Source of the DNA: a virus
Lineage: Duplodnaviria; Heunggongvirae; Uroviricota; Caudoviricetes
Virus record (IMG/VR): IMGVR_UViG_2778261536_000007
Strand: one strand, 5' to 3'
DNA length: 8,910 nt
Part shown: piece by piece, positions 1 through 7,271 of the stretch
Position numbering within the stretch: the first letter of the stretch is position 1
How the letters are laid out: each line of letters opens with the position of its first letter
The notes under the pieces: model-generated
The model's database searches: none
Told to the model about the DNA's origin: nothing
The model's input: only the letters and a program-made list of their open reading frames with translations
Translations under genes and position numbers: made by a program

Positions 1-133
1 CATAACCTGAATCTGAGGCAGCACCTGGCACGGCTGGGACGGAAGTCGCTGTCGTTCTCAAAATCGGTGGAGCTGCATGACAAAGTCATCGGGCATTATC
101 TGAACATAAAACACTATCAATAAGTTGGAGTCA

Positions 134-481
134 TTACCCGCCGTGCGGCCTCAACACCCGAAAAGCTTCTTTAAATCTCTGTCGCAAATCATCACGCCAG
201 GCATCTTTATTCAGCCGTCCATATTTCTTTCCCATCCAGGCGTTATCACCAACACGCTCAAGATGCGGAGGGTCTAATACAACCATCGAAAAAGATGCGT
301 CTGCAAATGATAATGCACGAAAATCTGCGATAATGTCAGGGCTGATAATCAAGCGTCTCCCATTGCGTAATGTGTATCCTTCTTTTCTGATATCGCTGAA
401 TATCGCCCGTTTGTCAGACTTATCGAACCAGAACATGCGGCTGCCACAGCACATATCAAGAATGGTTGCCGGTGCACTCAC
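134..481 (-). CDS. SAM-dependent methyltransferase-like protein (115 aa), possibly an amino-methyltransferase fragment
   Basis: Translation carries a motif I-like ILDMCCGS, a DPPH tetrapeptide (motif IV of N6-adenine/N4-cytosine methyltransferases) and VLRPHGG. Ends at a double stop TAATGA with no room for a target-recognition domain. Probable GTG start at 481 overlapping the upstream stop (GTGA), AGGA about 9 nt upstream. Confidence 0.55.
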   Translation of the reverse strand: MSAPATILDMCCGSRMFWFDKSDKRAIFSDIRKEGYTLRNGRRLIISPDIIADFRALSFADASFSMVVLDPPHLERVGDNAWMGKKYGRLNKDAWRDDLRQRFKEAFRVLRPHGG

Positions 482-900
482 TGCGCCACGTCCTGAAAAT
501 TACCCTGATAGAAAGCCAGTATGCGCTGCATAACTTCGCTCTTCCGGCACTCGCGACAGATTATGTTTAGGCGACTGTCGTAGCGACGTATTTCTCCGTC
601 AGGTGATGACCAGATAAGGTCCGGATCAACCACAGCAGGTTTCTTCACCTTTGCCCTCGAGAGTTTTTTGCGGGCGTTTTGCCAGTCCTTACGCGCCTGT
701 TCAGAGGGGAATAACCCGTAGCCGGAGTTGTATACATCGCCACTGGCTACCAGCTCTCTGGCAAGAACGCTCATCAGATATCTAGTCGCACCTGTTTTAG
801 CTTCCAGTTGCCGTAACGTCTCACGGCCGCTCTGGCGCACGAGTTCCACCACCTGCCATTTAATTTTTTCCCGCTCTTCTTGTGTAAAAACTTTTGCCAC
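478..900 (-). CDS. Hypothetical phage protein (140 aa)
   Basis: Long ORF with GTG start preceded by a strong SD (AAGGGGGA, 3-4 nt spacer). Stop overlaps the start of the downstream methyltransferase-like ORF. No recognised catalytic motif. Confidence 0.5.
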   Translation of the reverse strand: MAKVFTQEEREKIKWQVVELVRQSGRETLRQLEAKTGATRYLMSVLARELVASGDVYNSGYGLFPSEQARKDWQNARKKLSRAKVKKPAVVDPDLIWSSPDGEIRRYDSRLNIICRECRKSEVMQRILAFYQGNFQDVAQ

Positions 901-940
901 AAGTCCCCCTTAAAATTACCTCATGACCTGAAATCAACAC

Positions 941-1906
941 TTATCCTCTGAAACCAGGCGGAATTTCTGTATCCGGTTCAGAAATATGATTAACACAACG
1001 CTGTACAGGTGAACGTCCCAGGCGGATGACCAGTTCGTCCCATTTTTCGCGGAGCTTTGACGGGCTCATGATGTTTTTTACCCAGAATGGATCTCGCTGA
1101 ACCCGACCAAACATTTCGCAAATTTGTCTGTGGCTTCTGCCATCCAGCATCCGCATTGTGCGCACGTCATTGGCCCAGGCAGTCCAGTTAGGCTCTTTTG
1201 GTCGCATGATCTCGCCATCATCACTGGCTGCCTGTTCGTAGAGACCCACGATCCGCCCCCAGATCCACTGCGCACACGCCAAATCCTCCCTGCTACCCCA
1301 CTGGCGTTTTTTCGCACTAAACACAACCGCGTCGGAGTTCCGGGTTAAAGAATCCTGTTCAGTCGTCTGCGGGTCCGGTTGCGAAGCTTCCGGACGAAAA
1401 GTGTTTTTATTCTCTGTAGTAATCTCTGTTGTATTCTCTGTAAGATCATCAGGCCATTTTGACCCGATGACATTGGGTCGTTTTGAACCAATGGAGCGTT
1501 TCATTTTGACCTCTTCCATCGTGTCATTTTGACCTGATGGAGCGGCGCATTTTGAACCGATGGATTCGCTCAATTTGCCACCATCTAAAAGCTCGCTCCC
1601 ATAGTTGATCGTGTAGAAATTGGTCATATCGCGCTTTGATTTATTGAGCTTTTCACAACGCAAAAGCCCCAGCGTTTTCAGACTTGCAAACGCGCGCTTT
1701 AACGTTGATTCTGACCAGAATGGGAACTGTTCAAGCCATTGTTCCGTTGTGTTATAAATCCAGCGAACACCATCACATTCCATGCCGGAGTTGGTATCTC
1801 TCAACCAGTAGTGCAGTTGTTGCAAAACAATGGCTTCGTTTAAGCCAATTTTCATTGCCAGCTGCGTGTTTATAACCAGTGGGCGTTCAGCAAAAAGAAG
1901 GCTCAT
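941..1906 (-). CDS. Phage replication initiator (lambda O-like role) with DnaT-like C-terminal tail
   Basis: First ATG at 1906 (the track's longer ORF to 1960 starts on TTG with no SD). Iterons sit inside the gene as in lambda O, giving a repeated SIGSK peptide. C-terminus ...SEPDTEIPPGFRG resembles the end of E. coli primosomal protein DnaT as I remember it. Confidence 0.7.
   Translation of the reverse strand: MSLLFAERPLVINTQLAMKIGLNEAIVLQQLHYWLRDTNSGMECDGVRWIYNTTEQWLEQFPFWSESTLKRAFASLKTLGLLRCEKLNKSKRDMTNFYTINYGSELLDGGKLSESIGSKCAAPSGQNDTMEEVKMKRSIGSKRPNVIGSKWPDDLTENTTEITTENKNTFRPEASQPDPQTTEQDSLTRNSDAVVFSAKKRQWGSREDLACAQWIWGRIVGLYEQAASDDGEIMRPKEPNWTAWANDVRTMRMLDGRSHRQICEMFGRVQRDPFWVKNIMSPSKLREKWDELVIRLGRSPVQRCVNHISEPDTEIPPGFRG
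1408..1442. repeat. Three tandem 12-bp AT-rich repeats (core TCTCTGT) flanking the iterons
   Basis: TCTCTGT recurs at 1411, 1423 and 1435, a 12-bp period, immediately next to the iteron block inside the replication gene. Confidence 0.6.
1455..1570. repeat. Putative replication origin: five direct iterons of ~23 bp (CATTTTGA[C/A]C + GATGGAGCG-like)
   Basis: Copies begin at 1455, 1479, 1502, 1525 and 1548 with 23-24 bp spacing, all inside the initiator gene. Confidence 0.7.
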
Positions 1907-2408
1907 AATTCCATCCAGCTTTTTGTTGGTATTGCTGTCGATACGCAAGCTTGAAAGCAATTGCTTTTTCTATAAGTTCGTCAGTTTCACGATCCACTAC
2001 GGCAGGATCAGCAAAAAGCAGTCCGGACTCCACCACATCGCCATATTCTTTGTTTAACCCGGCGATCATGCACGTGATGCTTTTTCCGTCAGTAATTTCA
2101 CGATACAACCTGAAATCACTAATCCGGATAGCCTCCATAATCGCAGGCACTAGCGCCGTGAACTTTTCACGCTTATCCCTGGTGTCGATAGCCTTCCAGC
2201 GTTCGAATATCTTCACTCGATTAACACCAAGCGCTCGCTGATCAACCGCGCCACCTTCATCTGTGACACGCTGAACATCGATGTTCGGGCGCTCTTTCAA
2301 AGCCCAGAATGCTTCAGTGATTAATATCGTCGCCTGCTCCTGTGTCATTCCTGGTCGACATATCCAGGCATCCAGAGCCTCACGAGCCTGTTCAGGAGTG
2401 ATTTTCAT
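1887..2408 (-). CDS. Hypothetical protein (173 aa) in the cII position downstream of cro-like dicC
   Basis: ATG start at 2408. Overlaps the dicC stop by 17 nt and the replication gene start by about 20 nt. Function unknown; slot corresponds to cII/YdaT-like regulators. Confidence 0.5.
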   Translation of the reverse strand: MKITPEQAREALDAWICRPGMTQEQATILITEAFWALKERPNIDVQRVTDEGGAVDQRALGVNRVKIFERWKAIDTRDKREKFTALVPAIMEAIRISDFRLYREITDGKSITCMIAGLNKEYGDVVESGLLFADPAVVDRETDELIEKAIAFKLAYRQQYQQKAGWNYEPSFC

Positions 2409-2619
2409 TGTTCAACCGCCCCGCCCGCTTCGTCTTACGATATTCATCATAAACTTTGGGATCATACTGAAGCTCCCCGCCAGATGCCTCCTGTAGACGC
2501 ATCGCGCGACCTTCAGGAACCAGTATCCCCCAAGCAGCAACACTTGCCAGCCTCACTCCTGCGGCATTGGCAAGCTTTGTTTTGCTGCCAAAAAAAGTAA
2601 TTGCGTCAACTTTAAGCAT
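2392..2619 (-). CDS. dicC: Cro-like HTH regulator DicC
   Basis: Small HTH protein (GSKTKLANAAGVRLASVAAWG) divergent from the repressor gene. ATG at 2619 follows a strong SD (AGAGGGGG, 5 nt spacer). An in-frame TTG at 2622 would give 76 aa. Confidence 0.75.
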   Translation of the reverse strand: MLKVDAITFFGSKTKLANAAGVRLASVAAWGILVPEGRAMRLQEASGGELQYDPKVYDEYRKTKRAGRLNNENHS

Positions 2620-2631
2620 CAAAGCCCCCTC

Positions 2632-2699: not shown

Positions 2700-3107
2700 A
2701 TGGATACAAGAACCCTGGGCCAGCGAGTTCTGGCGCGACGAAAAGAATTACGCTTAACACAACGAGAAGCCGCGCGCCTCGCTGGAGTTGCTCACGTCAC
2801 AATTTCACAATGGGAAAGAGACGAAACCCAGCCAGTCGGAAAACGATTGTTTGCTTTAGCGGATGCTCTGAAGTGCTCACCTACATGGCTAATGTTTGGT
2901 GACGAAGACAAGGCACCAGTGCCTGCACAAGAACTTCATGTGGAAACAGAGCTAACTCCCAACCACAAAGAATTGATCGAATTATTCGATGCTCTTCCAT
3001 CTTCCGAGCAGGAAGCCTTGCTGTCTGAAATGCGCGCAAGAGTAGAAAACTTCAACAAACTCTTCGAAGAAATGCTTAAAGCGCGTAAAAATAAATCAAT
3101 AAAATAA
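2700..3107 (+). CDS. dicA: XRE-family HTH repressor DicA (cI-like, 135 aa)
   Basis: Classic HTH_3 domain (LTQREAARLAGVAHVTISQWE). 135 aa matches DicA. No SD upstream of the ATG; a TAGAAT -10-like hexamer at 2685-2690 suggests a leaderless transcript. Confidence 0.85.
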   Translation: MDTRTLGQRVLARRKELRLTQREAARLAGVAHVTISQWERDETQPVGKRLFALADALKCSPTWLMFGDEDKAPVPAQELHVETELTPNHKELIELFDALPSSEQEALLSEMRARVENFNKLFEEMLKARKNKSIK

Positions 3108-4149: not shown

Positions 4150-4202
4150 TTTCTGGTGACGTTTGGCGGTATCAGTTTTACTCCGTGACTGCTCTGCCGC
4201 CC
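4150..4202 (+). ncRNA. dicF: DicF small regulatory RNA (53 nt), processed from the dicB operon transcript
   Basis: Sequence TTTCTGGTGACGTTTGGCGGTATCAGTTTTACTCCGTGACTGCTCTGCCGCCC matches DicF as I remember it. It sits between ydfC and dicB with no protein-like ORF and ends in a GC-rich stem plus T-run. Confidence 0.7.
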
Positions 4203-4207: not shown

Positions 4208-4376
4208 AAAGTGAATTTTGTGATGTGGTGAATGCGGCTGAGCGCACGCGGAACAGTTAAAACCAAAAACAGTGTTATGGGTGGATTCTCTGTATCCGGC
4301 GTTAATTGTTAACTGGTTAACGTCACCTGGAGGCACCAGGCACTGCATCACAAAATTCATTGTTGAGGACGCGATA

Positions 4377-4565
4377 ATGAAAACGTTATTACCAAACGTT
4401 AATACGTCTGAAGGTTGTTTTGAAATTGGTGTCACTATCAGTAACCCAGTATTTACTGAAGATGCCATTAACAAGAGAAAACAAGAACGGGAGCTATTAA
4501 ATAAAATATGCATTGTTTCAATGCTGGCTCGTTTACGTCTGATGCCAAAAGGATGTGCACAATGA
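4377..4565 (+). CDS. dicB: Cell-division inhibitor DicB (62 aa)
   Basis: ATG at 4377 preceded by GAGGA with 7 nt spacer; the longer track ORF from 4272 has no start signal. Translation MKTLLPNVNTSEGCFEIGV... and 62-aa length match DicB. Confidence 0.8.
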   Translation: MKTLLPNVNTSEGCFEIGVTISNPVFTEDAINKRKQERELLNKICIVSMLARLRLMPKGCAQ

Positions 4566-4846: not shown

Positions 4847-5104
4847 ATGAGTAAAGTCTTTATTTGCGCCGCTATTCCTGACGAACTGGCAACAAGGGAA
4901 GAAGGCGCTGTGGCTGTAGCCACAGCCATTGAAGCTGGCGACGAACGCCGTGCTCGAGCAAAATTTCACTGGCAGTTCCTGGAACATTATCCGGCTGCTC
5001 AGGACTGCGCTTATAAATTTATTGTCTGCGAGGATAAACCTGGCATACCCCGCCCTGCCCTCGATTCATGGGATGCTGAATATGCAGGAAAACCGCTGGG
5101 ATGA
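4847..5104 (+). CDS. Hypothetical small protein (85 aa) preceding the exonuclease gene
   Basis: ATG with GAGG about 10 nt upstream. Its 3' end overlaps the beginning of the long exonuclease ORF in another frame. Confidence 0.55.
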   Translation: MSKVFICAAIPDELATREEGAVAVATAIEAGDERRARAKFHWQFLEHYPAAQDCAYKFIVCEDKPGIPRPALDSWDAEYAGKPLG

Positions 5105-7271
5105 GGAGTCTGCTTCTTTTGTCCCGGTTGAGACTGAATCCGATCCGATGAACGTCACTTTTGACAAGCTGGCCCCTGAAGTACAGAACGCTGTCATGGT
5201 TAAGTTCGACACATGTGAAAACATCACCGTTGATATGGTTATTAGCGCACAGGAATTGTTGCAGGAAGACATGGCAACATTCGACGGACATATCGTTGAA
5301 GCGTTGATGAAAATGCCAGAAGTTAACGCCATGTATCCGGAGCTTAAGTTGCACGCCATTGGGTGGGTTAAGCATAAATGTATTCCTGGTGCTAAATGGC
5401 CCGAAATTCAGGCAGAGATGCGCATCTGGAAAAAACGTCGCGAAGGTGAACGCAAGGAAACCGGAAAATACACGTCTGTTGTTGATCTCGCCCGCGCCAG
5501 AACCAATCAACAGTACACTGAAAATTCAACAGGAAAAATCAGCCCGGTCATTGCTGCCATTCATCGCGAATACAAGCAGACATGGAAAACACTGGATGAC
5601 GAACTGGCCTACGCTCTCTGGCCTGGTGATGTGGATGCCGGAAACATTGACGGCAGCATCCATCGCTGGGCAAAAAAAGAAGTTATCGACAACGACCGCG
5701 AAGACTGGAAGCGTATCTCGGCATCAATGCGCAAACAGCCTGATGCCCTTCGCTACGACCGCCAGACTATTTTTGGCCTTGTCCGTGAGCGTCCGATCGA
5801 CATTCACAAAGATCCCATAGCACTGAACAAATATATCTGCGAATACCTGACGACAAAGGGCGTGTTTGAGAATGAAGAAACAGACCTGGGCACTGTTGAT
5901 GTTCTCCAGTCATCAGAAACACAAACTGATGCAGTGGAAACTGAGGTATCTGATATCCCAAAAAATGAAACCGCGCCGGAAGCTGAACCATCTGTAGAGC
6001 GTGAGGGGCCGTTCTATTTCCTCTTCGCAGATAAGGACGGAGAAAAATACGGTCGCGCAAACAAACTTTCTGGTCTGGATAAGGCACTGGCTGCTGGCGC
6101 CACTGAAATCACAAAAGAAGAATATTTTGCCCGAAAAAATGGCACATACACGGGCTTACCGCAAAATGTAGATACCGCTGAAGATTCAGAACAACCAGAG
6201 CCGATAAAAGTTACCGCTGACGAAGTAAACAAAATTATGCAGGCAGCCAATATCAGCCAGCCTGACGCCGATAAGTTGCTTGCTGCATCACGTGGTGAAT
6301 TTGTTGAAGGGATTAGTGACCCGAATGATCCGAAATGGGTTAAGGGGATCCAGACCCGCGATTCTGTGAACCAGAACCAGCATGAATCGGAACGGAACTA
6401 CCAAAAAGCGGAACAAAACAGCACAAATGCGTTACAAAACGAGCCAGAAACGAAACAGCCTGAACCAGTGGCGCAACTGGAAGTGGAAAAAGTCTGCACC
6501 GCCTGCGGTCAGACCGGCGGCGGCAACTGCCCTGATTGTGGCGCGGTGATGGGCGACGCAACATACCAGGAAACATTCGATGAAGAGTATCAGGTTGAAG
6601 TTCAGGAAGATGATCTGGAGGAAATGGAAGGCGCTGAACATCCACACAAGGAGAACACTGGCGGCAATCAGCATCACAATAGCGATAATGAAACTGGCGA
6701 GACGGCAGATCACTCAATTAAGGTGAACGGTCATCACGAAATCACATCCACCAGCAGGACGTGTGACCATCTAATGATCGACCTTGAAACCATGGGAAAA
6801 AATCCTGATGCCCCGATCATCTCAATAGGTGCAATATTTTTCGATCTGGAAACTGCTGGCGGAGTCATTGATCGGGACACCATTAAATGGTGGCTTAAGC
6901 AATCACGCGAAGCGCAATCTGCCATTATGACCGATGAAATCCCGTTAGATGATGCACTGTTACAATTGCGGGAATTTATCGACGAAAACTCCGGTGAATT
7001 TTTTGTTCAGGTTTGGGGAAATGGAGCCAACTTCGACAACACGATTTTGCGCCGTTCATACGAACGGCAGGGGATCCCCTGCCCGTGGCGTTACTACAAC
7101 GATCGCGATGTACGCACAATCGTTGAGCTGGGGAAAGCCATAGACTTCGATGCCAGAACGGCTATTCCATTCGAAGGTGAGCGCCATAATGCACTTGATG
7201 ACGCCCGTTACCAGGCAAAATACGTTTCAGTTATCTGGCAAAAACTGATCCCGAGTCAGGCTGATTCTTAA
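5082..7271 (+). CDS. RecE-like protein (annotated in databases as exodeoxyribonuclease VIII) with C-terminal DEDDh (DnaQ/RNase T-like) 3'-5' exonuclease domain
   Basis: Track ORF 4929-7271 starts on TTG inside the upstream gene; first in-frame ATGs are 5073 and 5082. Middle segment DKLLAASRGEFVEGISDPNDPKWVKGIQTRD resembles E. coli RecE as I remember it. C-terminal about 170 aa carry DEDDh motifs: DLETMG, WGNGANFDN, HNALDDARYQ. Confidence 0.75.
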   Translation: MQENRWDEESASFVPVETESDPMNVTFDKLAPEVQNAVMVKFDTCENITVDMVISAQELLQEDMATFDGHIVEALMKMPEVNAMYPELKLHAIGWVKHKCIPGAKWPEIQAEMRIWKKRREGERKETGKYTSVVDLARARTNQQYTENSTGKISPVIAAIHREYKQTWKTLDDELAYALWPGDVDAGNIDGSIHRWAKKEVIDNDREDWKRISASMRKQPDALRYDRQTIFGLVRERPIDIHKDPIALNKYICEYLTTKGVFENEETDLGTVDVLQSSETQTDAVETEVSDIPKNETAPEAEPSVEREGPFYFLFADKDGEKYGRANKLSGLDKALAAGATEITKEEYFARKNGTYTGLPQNVDTAEDSEQPEPIKVTADEVNKIMQAANISQPDADKLLAASRGEFVEGISDPNDPKWVKGIQTRDSVNQNQHESERNYQKAEQNSTNALQNEPETKQPEPVAQLEVEKVCTACGQTGGGNCPDCGAVMGDATYQETFDEEYQVEVQEDDLEEMEGAEHPHKENTGGNQHHNSDNETGETADHSIKVNGHHEITSTSRTCDHLMIDLETMGKNPDAPIISIGAIFFDLETAGGVIDRDTIKWWLKQSREAQSAIMTDEIPLDDALLQLREFIDENSGEFFVQVWGNGANFDNTILRRSYERQGIPCPWRYYNDRDVRTIVELGKAIDFDARTAIPFEGERHNALDDARYQAKYVSVIWQKLIPSQADS

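What the first reader, a model, noticed from the sequence alone, without database searches (positions are those of the whole stretch)
941..1906. Initiator with a DnaT-like C-terminal tail and no adjacent helicase loader
The C-terminus ends ...RCVNHISEPDTEIPPGFRG, closely resembling the C-terminal end of E. coli primosomal protein DnaT as I remember it. A DnaT-like domain fused to an iteron-binding N-terminal domain would let the phage recruit the host primosome directly, which would explain why no P or DnaC-like gene follows.
Basis: partly seen in the sequence, partly recalled or inferred. Interest (0 to 1): 0.5.

Follow-up and report, generated by a model that had tools for sequence, protein, structure and literature searches.

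The report
Phage initiator carrying DnaT's tail peptide
A lambda O-type phage replication initiator ends in the same 20-residue flexible tail as the host restart protein DnaT; across phages this tail goes with DnaC-type helicase loaders, which suggests how this loader-less phage borrows the host loader.

Summary
ORF 941-1906 (-) encodes a 321-aa protein whose last 20 residues match E. coli DnaT 160-179 (14/20 identical), and no helicase or loader gene follows it, here or in complete relatives. The "DnaT-like domain" reading does not hold. Residues 147-294 are homologous to the lambda O C-terminal domain, not to DnaT's three-helix ssDNA-binding domain. Only DnaT's flexible tail is shared.

The protein is a lambda-O-type initiator. 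It has an N-terminal winged-helix domain and a disordered linker whose DNA carries six 23-bp iterons plus an AT-rich stretch. An O-type C-terminal domain and the tail follow.

The tail (R-[DC]-V-N-x-[IV]-S-x-P-D-x-x-I-P-x-G-F-R-G-COOH) ends at least ten different phage initiator architectures. It ends the protein encoded just upstream of about 73 of 80 phage DnaC-like genes. It ends none of 80 initiators upstream of lambda-P-type loaders and none of 80 upstream of P22 DnaB-type helicases. All 80 chromosomal DnaT proteins sampled keep it, next to dnaC.

Best reading (inferred, not shown): the tail docks DnaC-type loaders, and this phage uses host DnaB-DnaC. The tail therefore does not explain loader absence, since it usually precedes a phage dnaC. 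DnaT's tail has no assigned function in the papers read, so this is testable.

The parts
941..1906 (-). CDS of the 321-aa lambda-O-type replication initiator (stop codon 941-943). Its start overlaps the end of the cII/YdaT-like gene by 20 nt.
   Evidence: Translation. PHROG 391 'replication initiation O-like', E 5.6e-91. Same CDS in RefSeq and in phage records.
1583..1879 (-). N-terminal winged-helix domain (aa about 10-108), the presumed iteron-binding domain.
   Evidence: AlphaFold model: helix/strand pattern with pLDDT 60-80. Weak fold matches to plasmid RepA N-terminal domain structures, 5kbj/4pql at E about 0.02. 42-49% identity to the N-terminal parts of initiators of Staphylococcus, Bacillus, Pseudomonas and Hafnia phages.
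1447..1585 (.). Six tandem 23-bp iterons (core CATTTTGAMC) inside the coding sequence. They encode the repeated SIGSK-type peptide of the disordered linker.
   Evidence: the repeat finder families D1 and D2, spacing 23-24 bp. The linker has pLDDT about 25-40.
1380..1440 (.). AT-richer stretch (38-40% GC) with a repeated TTnTATTCTCTGTA. It lies just downstream of the iterons in the direction of the gene and is the candidate unwinding element.
   Evidence: Composition profile and repeat D3. The layout matches lambda ori; function is inferred.
1019..1300 (-). C-terminal helical domain (aa 203-296), homologous to the lambda O C-terminal domain.
   Evidence: BLASTP to lambda O: 34% identity, E 5e-26. 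tblastn to many lambda and Stx phage O genes. Helices with pLDDT 60-78.
944..1003 (-). DnaT-type C-terminal tail (aa 302-321, QRCVNHISEPDTEIPPGFRG), predicted disordered. Proposed docking peptide for DnaC-type loaders.
   Evidence: match to DnaT 160-179. pLDDT about 30. Recurrence and co-occurrence data.
901..940 (.). Spacer between the initiator stop and the DUF977 start (40-41 nt). Many relatives have a dnaC-like gene starting 0-7 nt after the stop instead.
478..900 (-). DUF977 / Ren-like gene, in the position of lambda ren. It is not a loader and co-occurs with phage dnaC-like genes elsewhere.
   Evidence: Pfam PF06163, E 5e-29. PHROG 142. Seen as the 2nd or 3rd gene after dnaC-like in 21 loci.
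134..481 (-). SAM-dependent DNA methyltransferase gene, truncated at its 3' end by IS1.
   Evidence: PHROG 954. Homology with genomes that lack the IS starts at base 139.
1887..2408 (-). cII-like / YdaT-family gene, immediately upstream in the same operon.
   Evidence: PHROG 163 and Pfam PF06254.
2392..2622 (-). Cro/DicC-like gene, first gene of the rightward-type operon.
   Evidence: Pfam P22_Cro. Annotated as DicC in PhiR42_1.

Best explanation
The gene encodes the origin-specific replication initiator of a Qin-like lambdoid (pro)phage. It is built like lambda O.

- An N-terminal winged-helix domain binds six 23-bp iterons that lie inside the gene itself, next to an AT-richer stretch.
- A disordered linker follows.
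- A lambda-O-type C-terminal domain comes next.
- In place of lambda O's own C-terminal peptide (...DLTNTDWIYGVDL), it carries the 20-residue flexible tail found at the end of the host protein DnaT.

I propose that this tail is a short docking peptide for DnaC-type helicase loaders. In many phages it would hand the initiator-origin complex a phage DnaC-like protein bound to host DnaB. In this phage, which has no helicase or loader gene, it would recruit the host DnaB-DnaC complex directly, as DnaT is thought to do at restarted forks.

Shown:
- the domain anatomy, the iterons and the homologies;
- amino-acid-level conservation of the tail;
- its strict association with DnaC-type loader genes, and not with P-type or DnaB-type genes;
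- the absence of a loader gene in this module.

Inferred: iteron binding, the physical partner of the tail, and use of host DnaC.
For: Anatomy:
- PHROG 391, E 5.6e-91.
- 34% identity to the lambda O C-terminal domain, E 5e-26.
- Iterons and AT-rich stretch.
- Domain/disorder pattern of the model.

The tail is a discrete, selected module:
- It ends at least ten unrelated initiator architectures. These include Phage_rep_O, DUF1376/YdaU, DnaT-domain proteins and several unnamed families.
- Homology between families starts about 20 residues from the end.
- Every synonymous codon is used at the conserved S, P, D, I, P and G positions.

Partner specificity, using sets of loci chosen by the downstream gene only:
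- 55 of 80 proteins encoded upstream of phage DnaC-like genes end in IPxGF[RS]G, and about 18 more in close variants. This spans 13 of 14 clusters of initiator bodies.
- 0 of 80 do so upstream of lambda P.
- 0 of 80 do so upstream of P22 gp12-type helicases.
- All 80 chromosomal DnaT proteins of Enterobacteriaceae species keep PD..IP.GFRG, and at least 79 are followed by dnaC.
- The dnaT stop lies 2 nt from the dnaC start.
- K-12 Rac YdaU has the tail and precedes YdaV, which is 50% identical to DnaC. Gifsy-2 shows the same arrangement.

Loader-less modules look viable:
- Phage HannyBb (source given as bird poop, host E. coli) has a 99% identical initiator. Its whole genome has no match to DnaC, P or gp12, and its only Walker-A ORF is the terminase.
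- PhiR42_1, Tritos and SPN1S are similar.

Hosts of phages with the tail are all Enterobacterales, the order in which the domesticated dnaC arose (PMC5109545).

The DnaT tail is flexible, has no assigned function, and is not part of the PriA/PriB/DnaT cryo-EM models (PMC5778457; PMC13377028).
Against: - No binding data exist, and no complex prediction could be run here.
- The tail codons adjoin the loader gene, so mosaic recombination would co-transfer them without any physical interaction. The sampled loci are not phylogenetically independent.
- The last two codons are strongly biased (AGG GGG). They double as the ribosome-binding site of the downstream dnaC-like gene, so part of the conservation is at the DNA level.
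- The authors of the preprimosome structure favour the DnaT N-terminal domain as the DnaB/DnaC recruiter (PMC13377028).
- This particular prophage copy is decaying: it has an IS1 insertion and a frameshifted exonuclease gene. Function in this strain is therefore not assured.
- A few DnaC-linked initiators have other endings, such as EKPPGFN and FISEDF.
Confidence: 0.55

Rival explanations
1. The tail binds host DnaB helicase directly, not the loader. It would tether DnaB to the origin complex whichever loader is used.
For: DnaB is the one component common to DnaT-dependent restart, phage modules with their own DnaC-like protein and loader-less modules. [quoted passage not shown]
Against: If DnaB were the target, P-type modules could use the same tail, because lambda P also delivers host DnaB. 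Yet 0 of 80 P-linked initiators carry it. The tail follows the loader type, not the helicase.
Confidence: 0.15
2. The protein mimics DnaT towards the restart proteins (PriA, PriB or PriC) and assembles a PriA-type primosome at the phage origin.
For: The tail is DnaT's. DnaT works with PriA and PriB. Some phage and plasmid replicons use PriA-dependent priming (PMC5778457).
Against: The parts of DnaT known to contact the restart proteins are absent here. These are the acidic linker and N-terminal domain, which contact PriB, and the three-helix domain, which contacts PriA and ssDNA. The cryo-EM models of PriA/PriB/DnaT were built from DnaT 84-153, without the tail. The strict link with DnaC-type genes is left unexplained.
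Confidence: 0.1
3. The tail is a leftover. The ancestor had a phage dnaC-like gene right after the initiator, that gene was deleted, and the tail in this defective prophage no longer does anything.
For: Near-identical initiators with the same tail are followed by dnaC-like plus DUF1627 plus DUF977 in other prophages. The spacer ends in the same ribosome-binding context that follows dnaC-like stop codons elsewhere, a possible deletion scar. This copy carries IS1 and a frameshifted exonuclease gene.
Against: The loader-less arrangement occurs in 35 of 118 viral loci and in at least two different initiator families. It is also present in complete phage genomes (HannyBb, PhiR42_1) with the tail intact. 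Within the window's family, the sequence before the motif has diverged into three types while the final IPxGFRG stays invariant. Host DnaC is 48-50% identical to the phage DnaC-like proteins aligned, so it is a plausible substitute.
Confidence: 0.12
4. The similarity to DnaT is a chance resemblance of two short C-termini.
For: The match is only 20 residues. The database E-values are weak, 0.006-0.04.
Against: Pairwise E is 9e-8. The same 20-residue consensus, always at the C-terminus, recurs in hundreds of phage initiators and in all 80 sampled DnaT proteins.
Confidence: 0.01

Closest known systems
Bacteriophage lambda O protein (origin-specific initiator)
   Same: Same position in the operon, after cro and cII. 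Iterons plus an AT-rich stretch lie inside the gene. Two domains are joined by a linker encoded by the origin. The C-terminal domains are homologous: 34% identity, E 5e-26.
   Different: The N-terminal domain belongs to a different winged-helix family (no Pfam Phage_rep_O hit). The last 27 residues differ: a DnaT-type tail here, against ...DLTNTDWIYGVDL in lambda O. No P gene follows.
E. coli DnaT (primosomal protein I), residues 160-179
   Same: The 20-residue C-terminal tail, 14/20 identical. It is predicted disordered here and is flexible in the DnaT NMR structure (PMC5778457).
   Different: There is no DnaT N-terminal oligomerisation/PriB-binding domain, no acidic linker and no three-helix ssDNA-binding domain. 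The gene is not followed by dnaC.
Rac prophage YdaU-YdaV, Gifsy-2 O-homologue/DnaC-homologue, and similar 'initiator + DnaC-type loader' phage modules
   Same: The initiators end in the same tail and sit in the same operon position. Some are close relatives of the window protein.
   Different: Those modules encode their own DnaC-like AAA+ loader, starting 0-7 nt after the initiator stop. The window module goes straight to the DUF977 gene.
DopC of Alteromonadales-type bacteria (Brezellec et al. 2017, PMC5509034)
   Same: A lambda-O-like N-terminal HTH combined with a DnaT-derived C-terminal part, in a replication-helicase context.
   Different: DopC carries the DnaT C-terminal domain (HHpred match to 2ru8), has no iterons, and is paired with a P-derived protein (DopE). 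The window protein has the O-type C-terminal domain plus only the DnaT tail. It has iterons and no partner gene.
'Initiator-solo' phage replication modules (Weigel and Seitz 2006, recalled from memory, not read here)
   Same: The replication module encodes an initiator but no helicase or loader, so host DnaB and its loader must be recruited.
   Different: I could not check whether that review describes this family or the tail.

Membership tests
Lambda-O-type phage replication initiators | Significant sequence match to a curated or clustered initiator family | tested here: met
   PHROG 391 'replication initiation O-like', E 5.6e-91, covering residues 17-321.
Lambda-O-type phage replication initiators | Origin (iterons plus AT-rich region) located inside the initiator gene, between the two domains | tested here: met
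   Six 23-bp repeats at 1447-1585 and a 38-40% GC stretch at 1380-1440, within the linker-coding part. Binding was not tested.
Lambda-O-type phage replication initiators | C-terminal domain homologous to that of lambda O | tested here: met
   BLASTP 34% identity over 148 columns, E 5e-26.
Lambda-O-type phage replication initiators | N-terminal domain of the Phage_rep_O (PF04492) type | tested here: not met
   No Pfam hit. The N-terminal domain resembles initiators of Staphylococcus and Bacillus phages and RepA_N-like folds instead.
Lambda-O-type phage replication initiators | Followed by a cognate helicase loader or helicase gene (P, DnaC-like or DnaB-like) | tested here: not met
   The next gene is DUF977. 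No tblastn match to P, DnaC or gp12 in 59 loader-less loci, nor in the HannyBb genome or the PhiR42_1 segments that together cover almost all of that genome.
DnaT (primosomal protein I) | DnaT three-helix ssDNA-binding domain (Pfam PF17948) | tested here: not met
   No Pfam hit at E <= 0.1. hhalign probability 0.1% between the two domain families. A phage protein that does have the domain scores 8.8e-18.
DnaT (primosomal protein I) | Whole-protein score above the NCBIfam equivalog cut-off (NF002770) | tested here: not met
   16.3 bits against a cut-off of 201. Only model positions 160-179 match.
DnaT (primosomal protein I) | N-terminal oligomerisation / PriB-binding domain and acidic linker | tested here: not met
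   BLASTP finds no alignment outside the tail.
DnaT (primosomal protein I) | C-terminal flexible tail ...S-E-P-D-x-x-I-P-x-G-F-R-G | tested here: met
   14/20 identical, E 9e-8. The motif is invariant in 80/80 chromosomal DnaT proteins.
DnaT (primosomal protein I) | Gene immediately upstream of dnaC | tested here: not met
   Not so in the window. It is so for dnaT and for many phage tail-bearing initiators.
Initiator-solo replication module | No helicase or helicase-loader gene in the phage genome | tested here: met
   The complete HannyBb genome and nearly the whole PhiR42_1 genome have no homologue of DnaC, P or gp12. In HannyBb the only Walker-A ORF of 120 aa or more is the terminase.
DnaC-docking tail (class proposed here) | Physical binding of the tail to a DnaC-type loader | not testable with these tools
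   Only co-occurrence is available.

The most novel reading that the evidence does not exclude
The 20-residue tail shared by DnaT and many enterobacterial phage initiators is the missing element that recruits the DnaB-DnaC complex. It would do so both at phage origins and at PriA/PriB/DnaT preprimosomes. On this reading the dnaT-dnaC operon is a domesticated 'initiator C-terminus plus loader' half of a phage replication module. Phage initiators would carry interchangeable C-terminal peptides that specify which loader type they work with: the IPxGFRG tail for DnaC-type, WIYGVDL for P-type, and other endings for DnaB-type helicases.
Probability: 0.4. Interest if true: 0.8.

Novelty: new variant of a known kind. 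Interest (0 to 1): 0.58.

Why it matters
How the PriA/PriB/DnaT preprimosome brings in DnaB-DnaC is called unknown in the 2026 structural paper (PMC13377028) and in the 2014 DnaT structure paper (PMC4132743). None of the DnaT papers read assigns a function to the flexible tail. Phage genomes offer a natural experiment on this point. The tail moves as a unit between unrelated initiators, and it tracks DnaC-type loaders only. That yields a specific, inexpensive prediction: the peptide binds DnaC, and tail-less DnaT fails to load DnaB.

It would also explain how lambdoid phages without any loader gene start replication. More generally, it suggests that short C-terminal peptides match initiators to their loaders, which would help in annotating and engineering phage replication modules. 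If the partner turns out to be something else, the finding is still a widespread, selected, unannotated motif on proteins that RefSeq mostly labels as hypothetical.

Tried and rejected
- Searching 1.84 billion representative proteins with the 30-residue C-terminus gave only 16 hits, mostly fragments of the same family. A motif this short has too little statistical power there.
- The AlphaFold model was only moderately confident (mean pLDDT 54). The Foldseek PDB search gave no match at E <= 0.001, only weak winged-helix/RepA-like hits for the N-terminal domain. I did not use it to judge the C-terminal domain.
- A profile-profile comparison of the O-type C-terminal domain with the DnaT domain was negative. 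The alignments were shallow (5 and 4 sequences), so a very remote relationship is not excluded.
- A full-text search for the motif strings (PGFRG, IPPGF, PPGFRG) found nothing relevant.
- I found no paper on PhiR42_1. Wrobel and Wegrzyn 2002, on the evolution of lambdoid replication modules, is not held. I cannot say whether the link between the initiator C-terminus and loader type was already described there.
- DUF977 as a substitute loader: rejected, because it also occurs downstream of phage dnaC-like genes.
- Conservation of the tail as purely DNA-level (ribosome-binding site of the next gene): rejected for all but the last two codons.
Full report
**Observation.** The minus-strand ORF at 941-1906 encodes 321 residues ending ...QRCVNHISEPDTEIPPGFRG. 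RefSeq and two phage records annotate the same CDS. BLASTP against E. coli K-12 DnaT (sequence) aligns residues 302-321 with DnaT 160-179. The alignment has 14/20 identical and 18/20 positive residues, with pairwise E 9e-8, and nothing else aligns. Searches of PDB sequences and NCBIfam find the same 20-21 residues and no more. The proposed alignment of 'residues about 200-321' is not.

**Context.** The window is a Qin-like lambdoid prophage of E. coli, in inverted orientation.
- It carries a DicA-like repressor (2700-3107, +), the DicF RNA (4151-4202), dicB, an exonuclease gene, xis and int.
- On the other strand lie cro/DicC-like (2392-2622), cII/YdaT-like (1887-2408), the initiator, a DUF977/Ren-like gene (478-900) and a methyltransferase gene cut by the end of IS1 at bases 1-138.
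- 519 complete E. coli genomes hold at least 80% of the left 3.2 kb.
- This copy is decaying. Besides the IS1, its exonuclease gene has a 2-nt deletion.

**Anatomy of the protein.**
- PHROG 391 'replication initiation O-like' matches residues 17-321 at E 5.6e-91.
- Residues 147-294 are 34% identical to lambda O 135-270, E 5e-26.
- The N-terminal about 150 residues resemble initiators of Staphylococcus, Bacillus, Pseudomonas and Hafnia phages.
- An AlphaFold model (mean pLDDT 54, so only the outline is usable) shows four parts. A winged-helix-like domain covers residues 10-108. Residues 109-202 form a disordered stretch. A helical domain covers 203-296. The tail, 297-321, is disordered.
- The disordered linker is encoded by six tandem 23-bp repeats (1447-1585, core CATTTTGAMC), followed in the gene's direction by a 38-40% GC stretch (1380-1440). 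This is the lambda ori arrangement.
- Iteron binding and unwinding are inferred by analogy with lambda O.

**What the DnaT likeness is.** Pfam's DnaT domain does not match. A profile-profile comparison of the O-type C-terminal domain family with the DnaT domain family gives probability 0.1%. [quoted passage not shown] That tail is exactly what is shared. No function is assigned to it in the DnaT papers I could read. The 2026 cryo-EM models of PriA/PriB/DnaT were built from the DnaT 84-153 unit, so the tail is not in them (PMC13377028).

**The tail is a mobile module.** I scanned IMG/VR with a degenerate DNA pattern for [DE]xxIPxGFRG-stop.
- 118 ORF ends were extracted. Most carry extra conserved residues that the pattern did not ask for, giving the consensus R-[DC]-V-N-x-[IV]-S-x-P-D-x-x-I-P-x-G-F-R-G-COOH.
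- The proteins fall into at least ten architectures. These include Phage_rep_O N-domains, DUF1376 (the Rac YdaU type), proteins with a true DnaT domain, and unnamed families.
- Unrelated bodies join the same 20 residues (for example ...NPWLLPVSGTNN|QRCVNH... and ...LVIRLGRSPA|QRCVNH...).
- All synonymous codons occur at the conserved S, P, D, I, P and G positions, so selection acts on the peptide. The last two codons are biased to AGG GGG, which also forms the ribosome-binding site of the next gene.
- Within the window's own family, the sequence before the motif has diverged into three types while the final IPxGFRG is invariant.

**Which gene the tail goes with.**
- Of the 118 tail proteins, 57 are followed within 0-7 nt by a DnaC-like AAA+ gene (Pfam IstB_IS21; aligned examples are 48-50% identical to E. 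coli DnaC).
- 35 are followed by DUF977, as here; 6 by a Dam methylase; 3 by a RuvC-like gene; 11 by other genes. The remaining 6 had too little downstream DNA. None is followed by a P-like or DnaB-like gene.
- I then chose loci by the downstream gene alone. Among 80 viral loci with a DnaC homologue, the upstream protein ends in IPxGF[RS]G in 55 and in close variants (VPPGFRG, IPDGFTG and the like) in about 18. This holds in 13 of 14 clusters of initiator bodies.
- Among 80 loci with lambda P, 79 initiators end in ...DLTNTDWIYGVDL and none has the tail.
- Among 80 loci with a P22 gp12-type helicase, none has it.
- On chromosomes, 80 of 80 DnaT proteins from different Enterobacteriaceae species keep PD..IP.GFRG, and at least 79 are followed by dnaC. 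In K-12 the gap between dnaT and dnaC is 2 nt.
- K-12's Rac prophage repeats the pair: YdaU ends ...RQVNTVSLPDSAIPPGFRG and precedes YdaV, 50% identical to DnaC. Gifsy-2 does the same.
- Deposited phages with the tail all have Escherichia, Shigella, Salmonella, Klebsiella or Pantoea as host or in their name. dnaC of Enterobacteriales has been argued to be a domesticated phage gene (PMC5109545).

**Loader-less modules.** Close relatives of the window protein with the identical tail occur both with dnaC-like plus DUF1627 plus DUF977 and with DUF977 alone. The tail therefore does not 'explain' loader absence. The loader-less form is nonetheless not just debris.
- Phage HannyBb (source bird poop, host E. 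coli) has a 318/321 identical initiator followed by the same DUF977 gene. Its 45-kb genome has no tblastn match to DnaC, P or gp12, and its only Walker-A ORF is the terminase.
- PhiR42_1 (99.7% identical initiator) likewise has no loader.
- The 5.8-6 kb regions retrieved around the tail-bearing initiators of Tritos and SPN1S also lack one.
- Across 59 loader-less loci (664 kb) there was no hit to any of the three loader or helicase types.

**Mechanism proposed.** The initiator binds its iterons and opens the adjacent AT-richer DNA. Its C-terminal tail docks a DnaC-type loader carrying host DnaB. In this phage that loader is host DnaC itself. The argument is by parsimony. Initiator tails differ by module type, and this tail is the one tied to DnaC-type partners, including the cellular DnaT-DnaC pair. 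I put this at about 0.55.

For the relic reading, there is a weak possible deletion scar in the spacer.

Main caveats:
- Tail and loader gene are physically adjacent, so linkage alone could produce co-occurrence.
- The samples are not independent.
- There are no binding data.
- The authors of the preprimosome structure favour the DnaT N-terminal domain as the DnaB/DnaC recruiter.

**Relation to what is known.** The protein is a member of the lambda-O-like initiator kind, with a non-canonical N-terminal domain and no cognate loader. It is not a DnaT family member, because four of five defining features fail. O-like proteins fused to the DnaT C-terminal domain have been described (DopC, PMC5509034). 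Some phage proteins that carry this tail are already annotated 'primosomal protein I'. I found no description of the tail as a separate motif or of its link to DnaC-type loaders. The most relevant older paper (Wrobel and Wegrzyn 2002) could not be read.

**Verdict.** This is a new variant of a known kind. Interest is moderate to high, because it turns the open question of how DnaT recruits DnaB-DnaC into a simple peptide-binding experiment.

Noticed in passing
window 1-138: The 3' end of an IS1 element truncates the SAM methyltransferase gene (134-481). Of the listed matches, only strain 17MR471 covers bases 1-138; the other listed genomes match from base 139.
   Followed up: partly
window 4847-7271: The exonuclease gene has a 2-nt deletion near 5080 (a frameshift, splitting it into ORFs 4847-5104 and 4929-7271). 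It also has a 45-nt in-frame deletion near 6841, relative to the intact 2472-nt gene in NZ_LR778141. This prophage copy is decaying.
   Followed up: yes
window 4151-4202 (+): DicF antisense sRNA: Rfam RF00039, 76.7 bits, full length. dicB follows it (within ORF 4272-4565). The element is therefore a Qin-type prophage that keeps the replication module K-12 Qin has lost.
   Followed up: partly
window 901-940; L115, L019: The spacer after the initiator stop ends in TAATTTTAAGGGGGACTT|GTG. This is the same context that follows the stop codon of phage dnaC-like genes upstream of DUF977 in other prophages. It may be the scar of a dnaC-like deletion, but only about 20 nt are shared, so the evidence is weak.
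   Followed up: partly
L205-L284 (lambda P loci); L204:2030-2929: Initiators upstream of lambda-P-type loaders have bodies of different lengths (281-366 aa) but an almost invariant last 15 residues, KLDLTNTDWIYGVDL (79/80). This may be the P-specific counterpart of the DnaT-type tail.
   Followed up: partly
L367-L446 (P22 gp12-type loci): Initiators upstream of DnaB-type phage helicases end in one of two other conserved peptides...LTGVREGKFADRGIA or ...LRPKVLIAIREGTL. This fits the idea that the initiator's C-terminal peptide matches its partner.
   Followed up: no
L146, L158, L162, L167, L198: A minority of initiators upstream of DnaC-like genes end in ...EKPP[EG]FN or ...QFI[PS]EDF instead of IPxGFRG. 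These could be degenerate or alternative versions of the docking peptide.
   Followed up: no
L015, L022, L040, L051, L052, L070: A tail subclass, D[PV]M.FGPV[DE]..IPEGFRG, is followed by a Dam-type methyltransferase gene overlapping or abutting the stop codon (offset -3 to 0), not by dnaC-like. The tail type ...KYECDTRIPEGFRG of Citrobacter and Salmonella homologues of the window protein also has IPEGFRG.
   Followed up: no
L069, L081, L090, L102, L448 (SPN1S): Phage proteins of 270-275 aa combine an unrelated N-terminal domain with a full DnaT domain plus tail. PF17948 scored 8.8e-18 for L081; the others resemble it in sequence. In the three IMG/VR loci the next gene is RuvC-like, and in L102 and SPN1S it is a DUF1064-type protein. 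None has a loader gene next to it.
   Followed up: partly
P0001, P0002, P0004: Some E. coli genomes carry a 448-aa ORF that joins a YdaT/cII-like N-terminal part (Pfam PF06254) to the whole initiator. The two genes overlap by 20 nt in the window, so a frameshift could produce such a fusion.
   Followed up: no
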